Assembly: GCF_006345805.1 (NCBI RefSeq)
Contig: NC_042997.1
Span: 177,630,001-177,694,000, forward strand
Origin: Octopus sinensis
Lineage: Eukaryota
Reading direction: 5' to 3'
Length of the DNA stretch: 64,000 bases
The notes beneath the pieces are model-generated. The model searched no databases. It had not been told where the DNA came from and saw nothing but the letters and a program-made list of their open reading frames with translations. Shown piece after piece: positions 785 to 62,085 of the stretch. Positions within the stretch are counted from its first letter, which is position 1; each line of letters starts with the position of its first letter. Position numbers and translations under genes: made by a program.

Positions 785-787
<3 letters not shown>

Positions 788-834
788 GAAGTTTGAAAAC
801 GCCACTCTATAATATAATTTTAATTTCCTGATAG

Positions 835-880
835 ATTTTACGTTTCGGTTGTTCTTGAAAAAACGAACCTTATCAAAAGT
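835..880 (-). ncRNA. Hammerhead ribozyme-like motif, U3:A8 core variant (degenerate stem I)
   Basis: Minus strand: actt TTGATAA ggtt-c-gttttt-tc-aagaac-aacc GAAA cg TA aaat. Confidence 0.4.
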
Positions 881-2459
881 ATTTTTAAAAGTTAAGTGTA
901 ATAAAAAAGTTCATAATTGTTTCTTACTAGTCTCAACAGAGTTCACGTGGTGGTGTTTTGTGTGTGTGTGTGGGGGGAGGGGATAATGGCTGTCTTGTGT
1001 GTTGACTAGAATCGTTGGCTATTTATGCATATATATATATATATATTGGTAAAAACGGTAAGATAACATATATATATATGCACTCATGTTTTGAGTTCGA
1101 CTTTTCCTTTACATCGCGAATCCTATACGTGCACGCACACACACTCACAGACACATACATATATACATACATACATACACATACATATGCATATATACAT
1201 ATGTGCATATACATATACACATGTACACCTATATGCATACACACAAGCACACGTACGTACGTACACTAATGAATATGCAAATTATACCGTTAAAGAAACA
1301 TTTTAAAAAATAAGACGAAAGAAAAGATAGAATAATTTAAACAATTATACAGTTGTATGACATAATGCCTTTTTATAAAGGATGGCATAAAGGAAAGGTG
1401 ATTGAAATAATTTAATGAAACACGTGATGACCCGCAATGGGGAAAAGGCAAGAGAGTTATGAGAACAAGAGTTAAATTGTTACTAAAATAATGCCACATA
1501 ATGCTTCCTGGTAGTAAATGTTACATATGATAATATAGAAAGAGAGGGATATTAATCAGATGTTAGTTATTCGCTGAAATAGCTCTCGGAAATCTAAATA
1601 TTCGTGGCCTGATCGCAAGCTCAAGCACCCAGGTGGAGCCACTGGTAGAAGTTTCGCAGGCTAACTCACTACTGTATATGTGCAGTGGCTTGGAATTTTG
1701 AATAAATGAATACCTTTTCTGATTAGATGCAATATGTCAGGTTTTCTGTGATCTAGCTGATACTATTGTCTATTGATGAGTTCTTCACCTACTCCTAAGT
1801 TATCAATTTCCTCCTTTGTATACGTATGTGACATGCTCATTTCTCATTTTACTGTTTAACAAGTATTGTCTGTGAGATACTTTTTATCTGACCATATACC
1901 GCTGCCCCCTTCTCTATGCCAAGCATAGTTTCTGCTTGCCAGTGTTGAAGTTACCATTGGGGATTAATATCATCTAAGTCATGGTTTCTAAGTTGCAGAT
2001 CTCTACAGGAAATCAAATTTTGATACTAACGGTGGCGTTGCAAAAGCCGTACGATATAAATCTTATTGAATGCGGACTTTCACACCTTCCAAAGTCTGCT
2101 GAAGTATTCTAGTTTTACTCTAACTTTTCTCACTCTAACTTTTCAGGTGTGTAGCATTTGTTACTGGAGAGAGGAGAAATAAGTGGGCCAATGATATCTA
2201 GATTCCTGGTCTGGTCAACAATCTTTTTTCAGTCAAGTACAGAAAAAAATGGACATTTATACTGACCAAACCCTATTTTTATGTTCTCTGTGAATATTTA
2301 TTTGGTACCTGCGTGATACTATGCAACACCCAGAAGGCCGTTTCGACGAACCCTATGCTTTTGCCGCCAGTAATCTCACTAATTAACTTCTTGTTAATTA
2401 GTGCTGTTAAAGTTACCAATGGTAATTTAATATTTTCCTAGTATTTATCTCTAAGTTTC

Positions 2460-7654: not shown

Positions 7655-8289
7655 GGTTTGGCATCCTTTCTGTCTCGGGAGACAATGGAGTTGCGCATTT
7701 TTTTTTCTTTTTTTTTTTTTTTTCTTTTTTCTAGGTCTAGTCCGGCTGTTATATTTTATTTCCTGTTACATTTCTTGCTGTGGCTGTGTAGTCCTATCCT
7801 GGACAAACACTCCCTCTGGCAGGTACTGCAAATGTAGCGAAGACTGTTCCTGGCTGGTTGTAGTGTCATGGTCTCTTGTTTATGTCTCTTCCTTTCTTTC
7901 CATTTCTCCTCTCTCTTTCTGTCACTCCTCTGTATACCCTCTTTTACTGTACGTCGCCATTCTCCACGGTTGCCGGCGACTGCCTCCCAACCGCTAATGT
8001 TGTTGTTGCAGGCCTTCATATCCCCTTTGCAAACATCCTTGTAACGTAAGATCGGTCTACCCACAGACCTAGTACCCCTAGCAAGCTCTCCGTAGAGTAT
8101 GTCCTTGGGGATTCTGCCATCTTTCATACGGCTAACATGCCCAAGCCATCTCATACGTCTTTGTGTGAGGAGTGCAAACATGCTTGGTATTCCTGCTTGC
8201 CTGAGGACATCTTTGTTGGGGATATGATTCTGCCATTTGATGTGGAGGATTTTTCGGAGGCAGCGCAGGTGAAAGATGTTTAGGCGACG

Positions 8290-8292
<3 letters not shown>
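7655..8292 (-). mobile_element. 5'-truncated RTE-clade LINE (ORF C-terminus with C2H2-like motif and 3' UTR), flanked by (TA)n on both sides
   Basis: [67 protein letters not shown]; stop at 7756. Confidence 0.9.
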
Positions 8293-8332
<40 letters not shown>

Positions 8333-8428
8333 TGTGTGTGTGTGTGTATTTGTGTGTGTGTATGTATAAATATATATTTATATATATATATGTATATATA
8401 TATATATGTGTGTGTATATGTATATATA

Positions 8429-8460
<32 letters not shown>

Positions 8461-8474
8461 CATATATATATGTG

Positions 8475-8512
<38 letters not shown>

Positions 8513-8891
8513 TGTTTGTTATGAGTGGGTTGGCAAGGACGTACTTTACAAGGACGTCTCGCCAAGTCTTTCTCGTACATCACTGATCAAAGATTTCTGT
8601 TAAGACAAGCGGGACAAATGGACGTGATATGACTCTTCAACTGAAGAGGGACGTTTGTCTTTTATGAAATACTAATACTAACCACCAAGAGGGTTGGTCA
8701 AGTTAATGAAGCATGGTAGATAAAAATAACTACTACTGCTCAGATACACAAGGAAAAGCCTGCATTACGTCTGGTAGTTCAATTGAACTGATAGTTCAAT
8801 ATTTCATCCCCCAACCGAAGATTTATATCTATTCAGTAAATCTGAGACATTTGATCGAATAAGGATCCAAATTACTCTTGTGAAATAAGTA

Positions 8892-16739: not shown

Positions 16740-17030
16740 CTACTACTACTCATTATCATTGTTCGACCGTGGTCGAGACAATGGAATTTACTATGCTACT
16801 TCACGGTCCATCATAGCATTACGGAGGTCATGTTGCTGAATGCCTGTATCCCTGGAGATTACATCAGGGTAGGAGAGTGTGCGCCCTCTGGTATCGCGAG
16901 TAGATGGCTTCCAGAGGAGAAGAGTAGAAATTGCCTCGTTTTCAGCTCTACAACAATGTCCAGCAAACTGGACTCTCCTACCTTTCACAAGAGATGATAC
17001 AGGTGGTAGTTTCCCATATGTTTGTACTTT
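16740..17030 (-). mobile_element. RTE-clade LINE 3' fragment
   Basis: RRVQFAGHCCRAENEAISTLLLWKP..GRTLSYPDVISRDTG..AMMDRE; short repeat tail. Confidence 0.75.
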
Positions 17031-17048
17031 GGTTGGATGACGCTTCCA

Positions 17049-17086
<38 letters not shown>

Positions 17087-17109
17087 AACAACTACTACTA
17101 CTGCTACCG

Positions 17110-17162
<53 letters not shown>

Positions 17163-17190
17163 GCTACTAACACCACCACCACCACCAACA
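17049..17190. repeat. (TAC)n microsatellite
   Basis: Direct inspection. Confidence 0.95.
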
Positions 17191-18150
17191 TTATTATTGC
17201 AGCTCTATGTGCCTCAGATATGTGCTGTGGTTTGTTTTGATATTAGTTTCATTGTATAGAGAATGTTCTAGGTAAGATGTGTGTGGTGCCCGGCAGTACA
17301 ATTTCCCGTATGTAATAAATATATGTAAGTCCATGGCGGCGAGTTGGCAGAAACGTTAGCACGCCGGGCGAAATGCTTAGCGGCATTTCTTCTGTCTTTA
17401 CGTTCTGACTCCAAATTCCGCCGAGGTCAACTTTGCCTTTCATCCTTTTGGGGTCGATAAATTAAGTACCGGTTGCGATCTGGGGTCGATCTAATCGACT
17501 GGCCCCTTACCCGAAAATTTTGGCCTTGTGCCTAGAGTAGAAAAGAATATTTGTAAGTCCTGAGGCTTGTGTTATGGAATTGTTTCTAAAATTCCCAAAA
17601 CACTTTTTATTAAAGGGATTGTTTTTGTTCACAAGCTCCACATTCGTGTTTTTTTTTTTCTGTTTCCAGATCTTTCTATTTCAATAGTTTCTCTATCCTC
17701 ATTTCTTGGTGGGACTGATATGTCAATTTGGAGGTACATAATTGCTTGGAGGGCCTTATCAGTAATATCTGGTCGATTATCCCTAATCTCTCTGTTTTTA
17801 TGTATTGGCATATCCCAGAGTATGACTGCATTGTAATTTTCTTTGACATTTTCTGGAATAAGCCGACACAATCACTTTTCTGTTGGTATTGCATAATCCA
17901 CATGTCTGTAGATATATAAAAACTGGAAGTTTTATATGTCCACAGAATATATTTTCGTGACCAAGACTGAGTACCCATAAACAATATTTATTGTTTATTT
18001 CCTCTTACCACATATTTTGCAGTTACTTCCGTATTCTGCCTCATTATGTATTATTTCTTTGCCCGCCTCCCTTTTTTTTTTGTTTGGTGATTTCTGGCTT
18101 GATCTACCGCAATTAAGAACCCATCTTAGCTCGTGAAAGTATTTTTCTTT
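17190..18150 (-). mobile_element. Decayed R4/Dong-type (RLE) non-LTR retrotransposon 3' part, interrupted by a SINE B, ending in (AAT)
   Basis: ILWDMPIHKNREIRDNRPDI..IDISVP (RLE PD motif) and C-terminal IVLPGTTHILPRTFSIQ*. Confidence 0.7.
17335..17548 (+). mobile_element. SINE family B with 15-bp target site duplication
   Basis: Full head-to-tail copy; TSD aatatatgtaagtcc (17318-17332) / aatatttgtaagtcc (17546-17560). Confidence 0.9.
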
Positions 18151-33132: not shown

Positions 33133-33169
<37 letters not shown>

Positions 33170-33261
33170 AGTAAGGAAAAAATTTTTTTTAAATGCAGAA
33201 TGCTCAAATGAAAGAAAATTTTAATAAAATGAGAAATTGATAAAATATATAAATATATATT

Positions 33262-33302
33262 TATTCAACCGGTTTTCGTCATTGTATGACTTGTCAAGAA
33301 TA
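33262..33302 (-). ncRNA. Hammerhead ribozyme motif with U3:A8 core
   Basis: Minus strand: tattc TTGACAA gtcat-aca-atgac GAAA accgg TT gaata; perfect 5-bp stems I and II, palindromic AACCGGTT. Confidence 0.65.
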
Positions 33303-33309
33303 TTTATGT

Positions 33310-33341
<32 letters not shown>

Positions 33342-33476: not shown

Positions 33477-34735
33477 GATTGATTGATTCTAGTTTCAGCT
33501 TATGAGCTGTGGCCACGCTGGGGCACCGCCATTTGGTGTTGCTACTTGGTTTCACTTCATGGAGGCTTTCTAGCAACTGCTATTTGGTGCAAGAGAGAGT
33601 TCGATGCAGCTGCCCTCATCTGCCCCTCCTGCCGTGAAGTTGGTTCATCTGGGACACCTGACAGGAAGAGATCCAGCTTCATTTTAAAGACATCTGTATC
33701 CACTCCATGCAGGTCTCTCAGGTTCTTCGGGAGGATATTGAAGAGCTGTGGGCCTCGGAAGCCCAGGCTATCACAGAATCTTGTCCTACATCTTGATGGC
33801 AAGTTTGGAGTCCTAGGCACCATGCTGTGGCGCCCAGTTCTGGCATTTGCGTAACTCTCGATGCCAAAGTTCAGGACACTTCCCTCCAGGATCTTCCAGA
33901 TGTATATTATGGCATATCTTTCCCGCCTACGCTCCAGGGAATATAATTTTAATCTCTTGAGTCTTTCCCAGTAGCTTACATTCTGCATAGAGGCTATCTT
34001 CTTCGTGTAGCTTCGTTGGATCGCCTCAAGTTCTGTGATCAACTTGACGCTGGATGGTGACGATAGCTGAGAGCAATAGTCAAAGTGGCTTAGGACAAGT
34101 GTCTTCCAGAGGACCATCATGGTTTCTTGTTCTCTTGTTCTAAAGGTTCTAAGAATCCAGCCAGCCAGCCGTCTGCATTTCATTGTCAGTTTAGCAACAT
34201 GTACATGAAAGGTCGCGTCATCACTCATGTGAATACCCAGGTCACGCACTGATTGTGCCTCTGGGATTGCAATCCCTCCGGGTCCAGTGTATTCATTGGG
34301 TATTGCATTCAGTTTTGCATGCTGATAGTATAAAGCTTGAAACTTTTCAGCATTGAACTGCATGCTATTCTTTTCAGCCCACTTGTATATTTCGTCCAGC
34401 TCATATTGCAGGTGCTTAGTATCTTCAGGGTTCTGTATTGCCTGTGAAACTTTTGTATCATCTGCATAACTTGTGATCGTGGCTCTCCGCGTGGCTGAGG
34501 GCATGTCTGAGAGGGCCATTATGAACAGTAGTGGTCCCAAAACAGTGCCCTGTGGAACACCGCTCACTATTTGGCTGCTACCACCTGACTTCTATTCTTC
34601 AGAAAGTCGTGAAGCCATTCTCCTAGTTTTCCAACTATGCCAAGATCACGCAGTTTGTGACATATCATTCCATGATCGACTTTATCGAAGGCCTTTGCGA
34701 AGTCGAGATATATGACTTCCACATTTGAGTGGTTG
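33477..34735 (-). mobile_element. 5'-truncated CR1-group LINE (RT domain and 3' end), one frameshift near 34567, flanked by TA repeats
   Basis: YLDFAKAFDKVDHG, SGVPQGTVLGPLLF, YADDTK, RDLG, SYWERLKRLKLYSLERRR; stop at 33557; (AATC)n tail. Confidence 0.93.
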
Positions 34736-36527: not shown

Positions 36528-37820
36528 TCAGGGCATCCCATAAGTTCTGTCCGAATTTTGAATAAAGAAAAGTGATCAAGTGTTATATTTATTTGAAATT
36601 TAATCATCAATGTACTTTCCCTGATTATCTGACATGACTTCCTTCCATCTATTTACAAGCTTTTTAATCCCATCAATGTAAAACTCTTTTGGTTTCAAAA
36701 CGAAGAACACTGAAATGTCAGTTTCGACCTCCTCCTGGCTTGCGAAAGTTATGTCCCCCAAATGATTCTGTAAACTACGAAACAAATGGTACTCTGAAGG
36801 AGCAGGGTCGAGAGAATAAGGTGGATGAGGAGTTTCTTCCCAACTAAGCACTTCGATCTTCTGTGATGTGATCTTTATAGTGTGGTGTCGCGCATTGTCT
36901 TGATGAAACATCACTCCTTTTCGATTCAATAAAGCGGGTCTGTTTTTTCTTCAAAGCTTGGTTCAAACCTTCTGATTGCTGACTGTAGATTTGAGCATAC
37001 ATTGTTGCATTAGTAGGTGGTAATAATTCAAAGTAAATTACTCCTTTACAATCCCACCAGATAAAGAGAAGAACCTTTTTTTCCATGAAGTTCCCTTCTC
37101 GGTTGTGGTTCAGCTTTTCCTTTTACCAAGCCACTGTTTACGACATTCAACATTTCGATAGAAGATCCATTTTTCGTCACCAATCACAAGCCTATCCAAA
37201 ATGGGTGAAATGAGTTCGTGAGAATGGAGAAAAGAGCAGATGTCAACTCGGGATTTGCGGTTGCTTTCGGACAATTCATGAGTCACCCATTTTCCAAGTT
37301 TAGGAACCTTTGCAAGTTGTTGAAGATGACAATGAACAGTTCTATGGTTTGAACTAAGCTTTATTGCCAATTCTTGAACTGATAATGCAAGATTTTCTTC
37401 AGGTAATGCATCAAGGAGCTTATCATCAAACTCAACTGGACGTGCTGTTTGATCTTCATTTTCAAGGCTGAAATATCCACTTCTGAATTTTCCAAACCAT
37501 CTTCTGCAAGTTCTTTCATCCAAGCATTCTTTCCCATAAACTCAGTGTATGTTTCGAATCGCTTCGGCTGCAGAGTTTACATTTTTGTACTCATAAAGCA
37601 TTATGTGCCTTAAATGCTCTTTGGATACTTCCATGTTAGAAAGGGTTTTAATCAAAGAAATTTAAATTCTATTATTCTGTAAAATAAAATTTAATTAGTT
37701 TGAATGTACACAAATGAATAAAAATAATTTTTTATTCCATTAGACATCCTAAAGTACTATAAAATTTCATTCAATTTTAAAAAAAAGGTAAAATCGGACA
37801 GAACTTATGGGATGACCTGA
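36528..37820 (-). mobile_element. Near full-length mariner (DD34D) transposon, transposase disrupted by frameshifts
   Basis: TIRs TCAGGGCATCCCATAAGTTCTGTCCGA / TCGGACAGAACTTATGGGATGACCTGA with TA flanks; ATG at 37634 (MEVSKEHLRHIMLYEY), WVTHEL, GDEKW, HQDNARHH, HPPYSLDPAPSEYHLF; stop at 36600. Confidence 0.95.
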
Positions 37821-44150: not shown

Positions 44151-45236
44151 CACACACAAATGCATACATTCATGTATATATATATGTACACATATACATA
44201 TATATACATGTATGTATGTATTTATGTGTAAATGCATGTGTGTATGTATATACGAATGAATATAATACCAACCAACATACATACATATACATACATACAC
44301 ACATACAAACATACATACACACATACAAACATACATACATACAAACATACATACATACAAACATACATACAAACATACACATGCACGCATGCATACATAT
44401 ATACATAGATATACATACACAATTACGTACGTACATAATACATACGTACACACAAGGAAGTTGTTTATGTGTTTATACAAACAAATGAAAAGCTCAATAG
44501 GCGCTAATAAAGGTTGTCTGTAGAGATAAGATTTCTCTTTCTACTCCTCCTCAATGGGTGTTTTCTACAGGCTTTACTATCAAAATTAGGCAAACTGATA
44601 CATTAAGTTTATATACGAGCACAAACACCAAAATGAATGAATAAAATAAAATAAAATAAAATAATAAATGAAAACGTCTAAATTCCAATAATGATTTTTT
44701 TACTTTTTCTCTTGCCAACAATACACATATTAACAAAAACACAACATGATCCGCCAAGAAAACAAAATTAATTAGCTTTAGCAACATAACATAACATAGA
44801 ATGAAAAATACTGAAGCAAAAACAAAATAGTTCAATATAAAAAAGAACAAAGCAGGATGAAATAAAAGACTACAACTAGAGTGCCGTTGTTTGATCATAG
44901 CTAGAACGAAGAGCGACCAAATAAAGATATCCTGACCAAGGATCAACAGAACCAATTTAGGTGGGTGGATTGGCGAATTGATAATGCACCGGATAAATAT
45001 AAATAAGCTACATTGGTTGGATATTCGAATCCTGCCAATAGAGCTGCCTTTTATTTCATTTTATTTTATTTATAGCTTCTTTTTTTTTTACATATATATA
45101 TATATATATATTTAATCTTTTCTCTTTTGCTTGTTTCAATAATTAGCTGCGGCCATGGTGAGGCACCGTATGGGATGGATTAGTCAACTGCATTATTTAC
45201 ATTTGACGGATATTTGTACTCATCTTGTTTATTGTT

Positions 45237-45282
45237 AACACAACGTTTCGGCTGGTATACTCTCCAGCCTTCATCAGGTGTC
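45237..45282 (-). ncRNA. Canonical minimal type-I hammerhead ribozyme (Penelope pLTR type) in a ~150-bp element abutting (ATT)n
   Basis: Minus strand: gacac CTGATGA a ggctgg-agagtata-ccagcc GAAA cg TT gtgtt; all stems pair and the core is intact. Confidence 0.85.
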
Positions 45283-45330
45283 TTGGGGAAATTTCGAACC
45301 TGGGTTCTCATTGCTAGGGTATTTTTCGAT

Positions 45331-47800: not shown

Positions 47801-48674
47801 ATATCTAATGAAGGATAAAATATTTTCTAAAAAAATATTCTTTTCCAAAAAAATTTTATCAATGGCCAGCATATCAAAATATACCTTTAAAGGTTAAATC
47901 TATAAACAATTCATAATTAAGGGCAAACGAAAAAGTCATTGTGCTCATGACTTAGTGTTCGCTTCTTCCATGGGTATGAGTAAGTATCTCATTTATATCT
48001 TTTGCCACATGTATCACTGACGAAGGGAGGGCTGTTATAAGCTAACCCTGAAATCGGTCCGATATGGTAATAATGGTATGTTTTAGAAATATCTGTCGAC
48101 CTTTTTTCGAGTAGCGTGCATATTGTGAAAACATTATATGGTTAATGGACAATATGTCCAATTTTTCGGCATATCTGGCATTAGAAATTTTTTCGTTTGC
48201 CCTTAATTATGAATTGTTTATAGATTTAACCTTTAAAGGTATTTTTTGATATGCTGGCCATTGATAAAATTTTTTTGAGAAAAGAATATTTTTTTCGAAA
48301 AAATTTTATCCTTCATTAGATATAAATTTAAGCGTTCACTTCCGGACTCTTTCACTCTGTGAGAGCATTAGTTTAAATCGCACGTGTCTCGAATAGGCTG
48401 GAGTATTTCTATTTTGGATGTATTTGGGGTACTTAATTGTGCTCATGACTTAGTGTTCGTTTCTTCCATGGGTATGAGTAAGTATCTCATTTATTTCTTT
48501 TGCCACATGTATCACTGACGAAGGGAGGGCTGTTATAAGCTAACCCTGAAATCGGTCCGATATGGTAATAATGGTATGTTTTAGAAATTTCTGTCGACCT
48601 TTTTTCGAGTAGCGTGCATACTGTGAAAAAATTATATGGTTAATGGACAATATGTCCAATTTTTCGGCATATCT
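47801..48674 (+). mobile_element. Penelope-pLTR/retrozyme-like element: inverted arm plus partial tandem repeat with two hammerheads
   Basis: IR 47801-47934/48189-48323; DR 47938-48176/48436-48674 (period 498); HHR tgtatca CTGACGA aggg..ccct GAAA tcgg TC cgatatg at 48010-48066 and 48508-48564. Confidence 0.8.
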
Positions 48675-54249: not shown

Positions 54250-54680
54250 TATATAAATCAATAAATGGTGGGGTTGTGTTGACCGCACGTGGAGAAATGA
54301 TAGGCAAGGAAAAATTAAAAAGGCAGAATGCTAAATTGAAGGAAAGTTTTAATGAAAATGGATGTATGGAAAATTTTGAGAAAATTAATAAAATATATAT
54401 ATATTAATTCAAACCGGTTTTAATCACAATGTGACTTTTCAAGGTGGAAAGAAAAAAAAATTTTGTTATGTTTGAGGAGGGGCAAAAAAGAAAATTACAT
54501 TGTTTTTTGCAAAAAATAATAAACATGTACAAAAATTAAAAAATAGGTATTCCGATACATTGTAAAGTCTTTGTGTGTATCTCGAGTTTAATGATAGTTC
54601 TTGAAAAAATTACCTTGGAGGATTGAGATCCATGTGATTAAATCCATGTGCTGTTTGATTAATTAAGGATTCTGTTAAGT
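54250..54680 (-). mobile_element. Penelope-like 3' remnant with degenerate U3:A8 HHR (54407-54445); homologous to 33168-33302
   Basis: Shared gcagaatgct..aaattga..ttttaat and ttcaa(a)ccggtttt; minus TTGAAAA gtcac-att-gtgat TAAA accgg TT. Confidence 0.5.
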
Positions 54681-58922: not shown

Positions 58923-59596
58923 TTAAAGCAGCAGAAAATTCAACAAAATCTGTTACTCTGAGTTTCTCGTTGCCGTTCATCAGACAGTTTTTGCTAGAAT
59001 GGAACCGAATATCAATTCAATCCAGACTCTTACAAACGCTAACCTTTAAAAAAAATGGACTTGTTTGATTGGCCCTTTAGAAATAACGGTCAATCTTCGA
59101 GCGATAAACAAAAAAAGAGCTCAAAAATATATGTATATATATATTAAAAAAATTATAAAAAATTAAAAAATTATAAATTCGAGGAAAAAACCTTACATTG
59201 AATAAAATACATATTGACGTTAATATGTATTTTATTCAATGTAAGGTTTTTTCCTCGAAATTTTTAATTTTATAATTTTTATAATTTTTTTTATATATAT
59301 ATACATATTTTTTTGAGCTCTTTTTTTGTTTATCGCTCGAAGATTGACCGTTATTTCTAAAGGGCCAATCAAACAAGTCCATTTTTTTTTAAAGGTGTAG
59401 CGTTTGTAAGAGTCTGGATTGAATTGATATATCGGTTCCATTCTAGCAAAAACTGTCTGATGAACGGCAACGAGAAACTCAGAGTAACAGATTTTGTTGA
59501 ATTTTCTGCTGCTTTAAATAAAGCATATTACTATACCACTGGTATTTGAGTACTCTTTTTTCCACCTTGTTTCACATTTATGTGTTTACTCCGGTT
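58923..59596. mobile_element. ~595-bp near-perfect palindrome with one hammerhead per arm and an unpaired tail, inside (TA)n
   Basis: Centre at 59218/59219; HHR ctgt CTGATGA acggcaacga GAAA ctcagag TA acag at 59453-59490(+) and 58950-58987(-). Confidence 0.85.
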
Positions 59597-61434: not shown

Positions 61435-61729
61435 ATTCTGTTGTGTCTGGGGAGAGTCATTTTCTTTTTGTGCCTTATAATTTAACACACTCAGCGGTAA
61501 AATTTCCACTTATTCCTTAGTTTTATTTTCCTAAAATTTTCGTTGCGTCTTGCAACATTTTCAATAGTCTTGACTCTGTCCGTTCAAGAGTCATGACTAT
61601 TGAAAAGGTTGCAAGACGCAACGAAAATTTTAGGAAAATAAAAATAAGGAATAAGTGGAAATTTTACCGTTTAGTGTGTTACATTATAAGGCACAAAAAG
61701 AAAATGACTCTCCCAAGACACAACAGAAT
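61435..61729. mobile_element. Long hairpin (143-bp arms, 9-nt loop) with a U3:A8 hammerhead motif in each arm
   Basis: cta TTGAAAA g gttgc-aagac-gcaac GAAA at TT tag at 61597-61633(+); mirror copy at 61531-61567(-). Confidence 0.8.
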
Positions 61730-62085
61730 ATGCTTCAACACACGAACTCATATAAAGAATATTGCAAACCAAATCCAAAAACGAAATGTAAAAGATTAAA
61801 TAACTAAAAACATGACATTGACACAAATATAAAATTAAAAATTCACAACTTGGTCAAGTGTGCAGTATTTGCACCTAAAATTGCAGCGGTGCAACTATAA
61901 TAATAATACTTTAATGAATGCATATAATCCCTTTAAAAGTATGCACATATCTTCAGCTTACATCTGTTTTTGTTTGTGTTTATGTTTGTATTAGGTAGGC
62001 ATATGTGTGTGCGTGTGTGTGTGTGTACGTATGTGTGTGCATGTGTGCAAGTGCGTGTGTGTATGTCTGTACGCATGTATATATA

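What the first reader, a model, noticed from the sequence alone, without database searches (positions are those of the whole stretch)
33262..33302. Compensatory U3:A8 hammerhead core recurring in unrelated element families
Seen: the cores read TTGACAA (33262), TTGAAAA (61531, 61597, 54407) and TTGATAA (835) instead of CTGANGA, while GAAA, UH and the stems are kept in the best copies. Established: C3-G8 forms a tertiary Watson-Crick pair in the active HHR fold, so the double change to U3-A8 preserves pairing. Inference: both positions changing together in at least three different flanking contexts suggests selection for activity rather than decay. Standard CUGANGA searches would miss these.
Basis: partly seen in the sequence, partly recalled or inferred. 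Interest (0 to 1): 0.75.

Follow-up and report, generated by a model that had tools for sequence, protein, structure and literature searches.

The report
Penelope hammerheads with known U3:A8 core
These motifs are end pieces of very abundant Penelope-type jumping genes that carry a tiny hammerhead ribozyme fold with a U-A instead of C-G core pair, a swap already in print; they likely cut their RNA weakly as pairs, and a sister repeat in the same genome also spread with that pair mismatched.

Summary
The motif at 33262-33302 is real, on the minus strand (core at 33297-33291). It is the truncated end of a Penelope-like element (RT plus GIY-YIG; at least 1,030 candidate copies, 98-99% alike). A full-length copy elsewhere carries the motif twice, 4.6 kb apart. 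U3:A8 is the family state, not decay: with one fixed 3' tail the genome holds 3,140 U3:A8, 104 C3:G8, 27 U3:G8 and 69 C3:A8 cores (controls 7-14). But the five cited sites are three families, not five. Two sites are one fold-back, two are subfamilies of one element, and a third family is about 53% alike in protein. The variant is published for Penelope hammerheads (PMC4209133) and for natural hammerheads (PMC3088659), and this scan noted it before (66 findings, at least 18 genomes). Side result: a 360-nt retrozyme-like repeat here has amplified C3:G8, U3:A8 and mismatched C3:A8 subfamilies, so the pair is favoured but not strictly needed for spread. Cleavage is untested and cut-site footprints are weak. 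Verdict: new member of a known kind.

The parts
33167..33313 (-). 5'-truncated solo pLTR end of a Penelope-like element (family A), between (TA)n microsatellites
   Evidence: 98-99% alike to dispersed copies; homology starts 47 nt before the predicted cut site
33262..33302 (-). Minimal type I hammerhead motif: stem I 33302-33298 with 33266-33262; core U3-A9 33297-33291; stem II 33290-33286 with 33282-33278; GAAA 33277-33274; extra A 33273; CCGG palindrome; U16.1-U17 33268-33267; predicted cut between 33267 and 33266
   Evidence: sequence; fold and cofold; 32 of 33 family copies held keep TTGACAA
54260..54620 (-). Older subfamily (D) of the same element; this copy's hammerhead (core 54436-54442) is damaged
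   Evidence: 15 of 16 copies U3:A8, the other shifted by a deletion
61435..61577 (-). Inverted arm of a fold-back insertion of family B, core 61558-61564
61585..61785 (+). Direct arm of the same insertion, core 61600-61606; Penelope-like end behaviour, no linked ORF found
   Evidence: 18 of 20 copies U3:A8
785..935 (-). End of a related Penelope-like family (C), core 870-876; helix III palindrome occurs in 4-nt and 6-nt forms in the family
   Evidence: 15 of 16 copies U3:A8
45230..45285 (-). Canonical C3:G8 minimal hammerhead of an abundant family (G), used as decay control
48008..48565 (+). Two canonical C3:G8 hammerhead motifs 498 nt apart (cores 48017 and 48515)

Best explanation
The motifs are minimal type I hammerhead folds in the terminal repeats of Penelope-like retroelements (shown for 33262, 54407 and 835; likely for 61531/61597), with U3:A8 as the inherited family state, and they are predicted to cut the element's RNA only as dimers through their palindromic helix III. 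Shown: location in the terminal repeat about 640 nt after the RT-endonuclease ORF, two direct copies 4.6 kb apart in a full-length element, fixation of U3:A8 while N7 varies, and paired stem changes between subfamilies. Inferred: AT-ward mutation (C to T, G to A) supplies the change and selection on active master elements keeps positions 3 and 8 paired; cleavage would release unit-length RNA from tandem or read-through transcripts. The window's copies are truncated insertion debris and are probably inactive where they lie.
For: PLE identity: RVT_1 above cut-off in family A (L329) and family F1 (L332); GIY-YIG just below cut-off; C-X4-CxxC linker; inverted 5'-truncated copies and (TA)n flanks; full-length copy L329. 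Covariation: 3,140 / 104 / 27 / 69 for U3A8 / C3G8 / U3G8 / C3A8 with controls 14 / 9 / 11 / 7. Decay control: family G 80 C3G8, 6 U3G8, 1 C3A8, 0 U3A8 of 87 listed rows (counted by eye). A versus D: stem I T-A to A-T, stem II T-A to C-G, N7 C/A/T. Cofolding pairs helix III between two molecules (-11.3 kcal/mol for 33262; partly driven by AT flanks). Literature: PMC4209133 (U3-A8 in Cercyon PLE hammerheads; low dimer cleavage for a minimal hammerhead), PMC3088659 (natural U3/A8 covariation, active in vitro).
Against: No cleavage assay. Cut-site footprints are weak: 2 of 17 rows in family A, and 7 of 11 breakpoints compatible with the cut site in family F1 against about 4 expected. Family A, the youngest, has lost a U so helix III is imperfect, yet it amplified. 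A C3:A8 subfamily of the retrozyme-like family E spread to 20 loci. Counts are copies of a few masters (about 77 of the first 100 U3:A8 rows are one family), not independent events. No ORF was found for family B in 25 loci.
Confidence: 0.82

Rival explanations
1. The hammerhead is only weakly needed: U3:A8 was fixed once or a few times by AT-biased drift in ancestral masters and rode along, and elements move with little or no self-cleavage.
For: C3:A8 subfamily of family E amplified: 24 copies at 20 loci, 18 loci with only C3:A8, about 97% alike. Family A's imperfect helix III; weak footprints. All ORF-linked U3:A8 families are related (47-57% amino-acid identity or more). Naiad PLEs spread without canonical hammerheads (PMC8557442, passages).
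Against: Paired states dominate at the family level (A/D, B, C, F1, F2 and two smaller families U3:A8; G, two others and part of E C3:G8; one mismatched subfamily). Stems and the helix III palindrome are kept through paired changes. In E the mismatch sits between two paired states.
Confidence: 0.14
2. The motifs are chance look-alikes or decayed canonical hammerheads in an AT-rich genome.
For: TTGANAA is the commonest of the four heptamers in the window (87); Rfam gives no hammerhead hit; two of the five cited copies are damaged.
Against: 3,140 against 14 in the reversed control; 8 against 0 structure-matched hits in 1.2 Mb of evenly spaced sequence; decay of a canonical family gives no doubles; the motif sits where PLE hammerheads are known to sit.
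Confidence: 0.03

Closest known systems
Minimal hammerheads of metazoan Penelope-like elements, including the U3-A8 variant of Schistosoma mansoni Cercyon (Cervera and de la Pena 2014, PMC4209133; read parts 1-2 of 4; supplements not seen)
   Same: Type I, in the terminal repeats, short stem I, palindromic helix III, G10.1-C11.1, U3-A8 covariation in large numbers, mostly solo truncated copies, opposite-strand pairs.
   Different: Another host, and elements with the Cys linker of the Neptune/Nematis type; family A has one unpaired A in helix III; a genome-wide four-way count of the 3-8 states is given here.
Natural U3/A8 core variants (Perreault et al. 2011, PMC3088659; passages)
   Same: The same covariation, stated there as active in vitro (citing Przybilski and Hammann 2007, which was not held).
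   Different: Those were a few examples; here U3:A8 is the state of several families with thousands of copies.
Animal non-LTR retrozymes (PMC7229834, passages; bioRxiv 10.64898/2026.07.22.740005, abstract and passages)
   Same: Family E: 360-nt non-coding tandem units with a type I hammerhead and Penelope-type insertion ends.
   Different: Family E holds three amplified core states, one of them mismatched; my searches found no paper on that.
Neptune/Nematis EN+ Penelope-like elements (Craig et al. 2021, PMC8557442; passages)
   Same: RT followed by C-X2-5-CxxC linker and GIY-YIG, inverted 5'-truncated copies, microsatellite targets.
   Different: Clade not fixed by a tree here; a separate upstream reading frame precedes the RT in the copies seen.

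Membership tests
EN+ Penelope-like element | RT domain followed by GIY-YIG endonuclease | tested here: met
   RVT_1 above cut-off for families A and F1; GIY-YIG at E 3e-4 to 6e-4, 1-2 bits under cut-off; families D and C by tblastn
EN+ Penelope-like element | Direct terminal repeats around the ORF, inverted 5'-truncated copies | tested here: met
   L329 full-length with two motifs 4,612 nt apart; inversions
EN+ Penelope-like element | Linked ORF for family B (61531/61597) | tested here: inconclusive
   no tblastn hit in 15 + 10 loci; only end behaviour fits
Neptune clade | C-X2-5-CxxC linker | tested here: met
   visible in family A translation; shared with Nematis (PMC8557442)
Neptune clade | Placement in an RT tree with reference PLEs | not tested
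   no reference PLE sequences were on hand
Minimal type I hammerhead | Core N3-UGA-N7-N8-A, GAAA, UH with paired 3-8 | tested here: met
   33262 and family-wide for A, B, C, D; not met in the damaged 54407 copy
Minimal type I hammerhead | Stems I and II with paired changes | tested here: met
   A versus D changes in both stems; few independent events, no formal covariation statistic
Minimal type I hammerhead | Palindromic helix III for dimer formation | tested here: inconclusive
   perfect in B, C, D and F1; family A carries one unpaired A or a G17 register
Minimal type I hammerhead | Site-specific self-cleavage | not testable with these tools
   indirect footprints weak
Rfam hammerhead models | Match at gathering score | tested here: not met
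   no hammerhead family among 5 matches at E up to 10
Non-LTR retrozyme (family E) | Short non-coding tandem units with a type I hammerhead | tested here: met
   360-nt period, no PLE-type ORF in the units
Non-LTR retrozyme (family E) | Circular RNA intermediate | not testable with these tools
   no raw RNA reads were offered

The most novel reading that the evidence does not exclude
This genome records the hammerhead's 3-8 core pair changing through a mismatch: a retrozyme lineage went U3:A8 to C3:A8 to C3:G8, and the mismatched stage still spread. One fold-back insertion joins a U3:A8 retrozyme hammerhead, ending at its own cut site, to a U3:A8 Penelope end starting at its cut site, which would be a fossil of two ribozymes cutting in vivo and their products being ligated and retrotransposed.
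Probability: 0.3. Interest if true: 0.55.

Novelty: new member of a known kind. Interest (0 to 1): 0.3.

Why it matters
Practical: hammerhead censuses that require CUGANGA miss thousands of copies here (3,140 with one tail alone). This is known in principle since 2011-2014. Scientific: whether Penelope elements and retrozymes need their ribozyme is open (PMC8557442). Family E offers a natural series of three amplified core states in a 90-97% identical background, which makes that question testable.

Tried and rejected
Rfam over the window gave microsatellite-driven miRNA hits among the 150 listed of 385, and none for the motif alone. The CR1-like RT frame at 33557-34591 upstream on the same strand is a separate element: it is absent from the other family A loci and is parted from the motif by a SINE piece and (TA)n. 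An evenly spaced 1.2-Mb sample was too sparse for the four-way count: 8 hits (4 C3G8, 1 U3A8, 3 other); that descriptor allowed one extra A after I had seen family A. No RNA holder listed; contigs of four runs showed no other letter at the core but cannot show expression or ends. No PLE ORF within about 3.5 kb of 20 family G copies with the family A protein as query, so no protein tree of C3:G8 against U3:A8 families could be made and the number of origins is open. PDB and NCBIfam gave no match; the Atlas gave no result. The order of states in family E is not settled: rooting at C3:G8 is not rejected (p-AU 0.095), nor U3:A8 as one clade (0.058). Przybilski and Hammann 2007, Lunse 2017 and Seehafer 2011 were not held, so kinetic data on single mutants are not cited first-hand.

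Full report
Observation. The window lies in a 2.72-Gb animal genome of 13,516 contigs; the repeats look like an octopus's, a label I recall and did not test. The cited 33262-33302 reads, on the minus strand, as a minimal type I hammerhead: 5-bp stem I, TTGACAA, 5-bp stem II, GAAA, an extra A, a CCGG palindrome, UU and the second strand of stem I. The other four heptamers exist at 54436-54442(-), 61558-61564(-), 61600-61606(+) and 870-876(-). The 54407 copy has lost C11.1, G12 and one strand of stem I, and the 835 copy keeps 2 bp of stem I. The heptamer alone is common (87 in the window against 36 for CTGANGA), and Rfam does not score the motif.

What the sites belong to. 33262 has 1,030 candidate copies, the best 40 scored at 97-99%. 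In 13 loci (of the 30 fetched) the motif lies 630-670 nt after a frame that ends in an RT C-terminus, a C-X4-CxxC linker and a GIY-YIG-like domain. A full-length copy (L329) has the motif, an upstream frame, RT (Pfam RVT_1, E 2e-8), endonuclease and the motif again 4,612 nt later. Copies are 5'-truncated, often with an inverted arm, and sit in (TA)n. This is an EN+ Penelope-like element of the Neptune/Nematis type (features from PMC8557442, passages; clade not tested by a tree). 54407 is an older subfamily of the same element (1,742 candidates; protein 77-95% alike in six of seven ORF-bearing loci). 835 is a related family (1,187 candidates; 47-56% alike, 1 of 15 loci with the ORF). 61531 and 61597 are two arms of one fold-back of a family with 1,332 candidates and the same end behaviour, but no ORF was found in 25 loci. 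So five sites are three families, at least two of them kin.

Is U3:A8 selected or decayed? Within the copies held it is fixed: 32 of 33 (A), 15 of 16 (D), 18 of 20 (B), 15 of 16 (C); these are the best matches to U3:A8 queries and so lean that way. The whole-genome exact patterns do not lean: with the tail N{12,24}CGAAACCGGT, U3:A8 3,140, C3:G8 104, U3:G8 27, C3:A8 69, reversed controls 14, 9, 11, 7. These are copies, not events: by eye 77 of the first 100 U3:A8 rows are one PLE family (F1, 54% alike to A; RT above cut-off), the rest five other families. With the tail CGAAACGTH there are 8,814 matches (control 942), and 87 of the first 100 are one canonical family, G: 80 C3:G8, 6 U3:G8, 1 C3:A8, 0 U3:A8 (by eye). 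Decay therefore yields singles, not doubles. Between A and D one pair changes on both sides in stem I and one in stem II, N7 varies, and family C keeps helix III palindromic in 4-nt and 6-nt forms. Both changes (C to T, G to A) run with AT-ward mutation, so the data show selection to keep a pair, not an advantage of U:A (inference).

Evidence against strict need. Family E, met in these counts, is a 360-nt non-coding tandem repeat with a fuller type I hammerhead. It has 189 U3:A8 copies, about 87 C3:G8 among 100 listed, 24 C3:A8 at 20 loci, 18 of them with C3:A8 only, and about 4 scattered U3:G8. With positions 3, 7 and 8 masked, 81 of 102 copies were long enough for a tree: all C3 copies lie on one side of a branch with 100% support, 17 C3:A8 copies group (16 at 93%), and C3:G8 forms two groups. 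Midpoint and distant outgroups (U3:G8 at about 69%, C3:G8 at about 59%) root the tree inside U3:A8, which suggests U3:A8 to C3:A8 to C3:G8, but on 31 chosen copies a root at C3:G8 is not rejected (p-AU 0.095). C7-G8 is a CpG, so C3:A8 could also come from C3:G8. Either way the mismatch amplified. Family A itself, the youngest, has one U fewer than D and than intermediate copies, which leaves an unpaired A in helix III or a G17 register (G17 lowers but does not abolish cleavage in stabilised hammerheads; PMC3884650, passages).

Signs of cleavage in vivo. Following a lead from earlier scan notes I listed copies that begin near the predicted cut. Family A: 17 rows, 1 exactly at the site (joined to the end of its own ORF) and 1 compatible; the rest are fold-backs in the TA run or full-length variants. 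Family F1: 14 rows, 13 events, 2 internal deletions dropped; 7 of 11 are compatible with the site, several through 1-3 nt of shared letters, against about 4 if breaks were even over the eight positions (P about 0.07 by hand). That is a hint only. One of them (L318/L319) is a fold-back whose template reads as a family E-like U3:A8 hammerhead up to its own GUC, followed by F1 from its cut site. This fits cut-and-ligate at the RNA level; a template switch over the similar helix III is not excluded.

Mechanism. Most likely (0.82) the terminal repeat is transcribed twice in a full-length or tandem element, the two palindromic helices III pair with each other (cofold), U3:A8 stands in for C3:G8, and slow cleavage after position 17 releases unit RNA for reverse transcription. 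Position, fixation and pairing are shown; dimer cleavage and its role are inferred from PMC4209133 (low activity in vitro) and PMC6765202 (passages). The window's copies are solitary truncated ends and probably do nothing.

Comparison and verdict. U3-A8 in Penelope minimal hammerheads was reported with about 1,300 hits in Schistosoma (PMC4209133), and natural U3/A8 covariation with in vitro activity in PMC3088659. The scan itself holds 66 notes with these words in at least 18 genomes, one of them on a 360-base repeat with mismatched sister lineages. My paper searches found no description for cephalopods and none of an amplified C3:A8 subfamily; supplements and three key papers were not seen. 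The finding is a new member of a known kind, interest 0.3; the family E series and the chimeric junction are its most useful by-products.

Noticed in passing
L206-L275 (family E, e.g. G000:C4:90625833-90626222): 360-nt retrozyme-like repeat with amplified C3:G8, C3:A8 and U3:A8 subfamilies; distant relatives with U3:G8 (L303:65-254) and C3:G8 (L156:2855-3062).
   Followed up: yes
L318:1441-1600 (G000:C15:10706271-10706394): Fold-back insertion joining an E-like hammerhead at its predicted cut site to family F1's downstream piece at its predicted cut site.
   Followed up: partly
L304:1506 and L326:1506: Penelope ORF sequence joined directly to the terminal-repeat piece that starts at the predicted cut site (0-1 shared letters).
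   Followed up: partly
L329:3684-4787 and L332:1219-2016: A reading frame without Pfam match lies upstream of the RT frame in families A and F1; separate ORF or frameshifted N-terminus not resolved.
   Followed up: no
L196, L200, L204, L205: U3:A8 family F2 with a stem II of only 1-2 pairs, about 150 nt after a Penelope ORF 55-57% alike to family A.
   Followed up: partly
window 48008-48565: Two canonical hammerhead motifs 498 nt apart with an imperfect helix III palindrome, inside a repeat with an internal inversion; a relative is in L100.
   Followed up: no
window 45230-45285: Copy of family G, the most abundant canonical minimal hammerhead seen (several thousand copies); no partner ORF found in 20 copies.
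   Followed up: partly
window 33557-34591 (-): 344-aa RT fragment (Pfam RVT_1) of a CR1-like LINE, unrelated to the motif.
   Followed up: partly
window 59045-59392: Perfect fold-back with 174-nt arms and no spacer, possibly another Penelope-type end pair.
   Followed up: no
window 7756-8586 (-), 36600-37541 (-), 16791-17204 (-): Fragments that look like an RTE-type LINE, a mariner-type transposase and another LINE tail (labels recalled, not tested).
   Followed up: no
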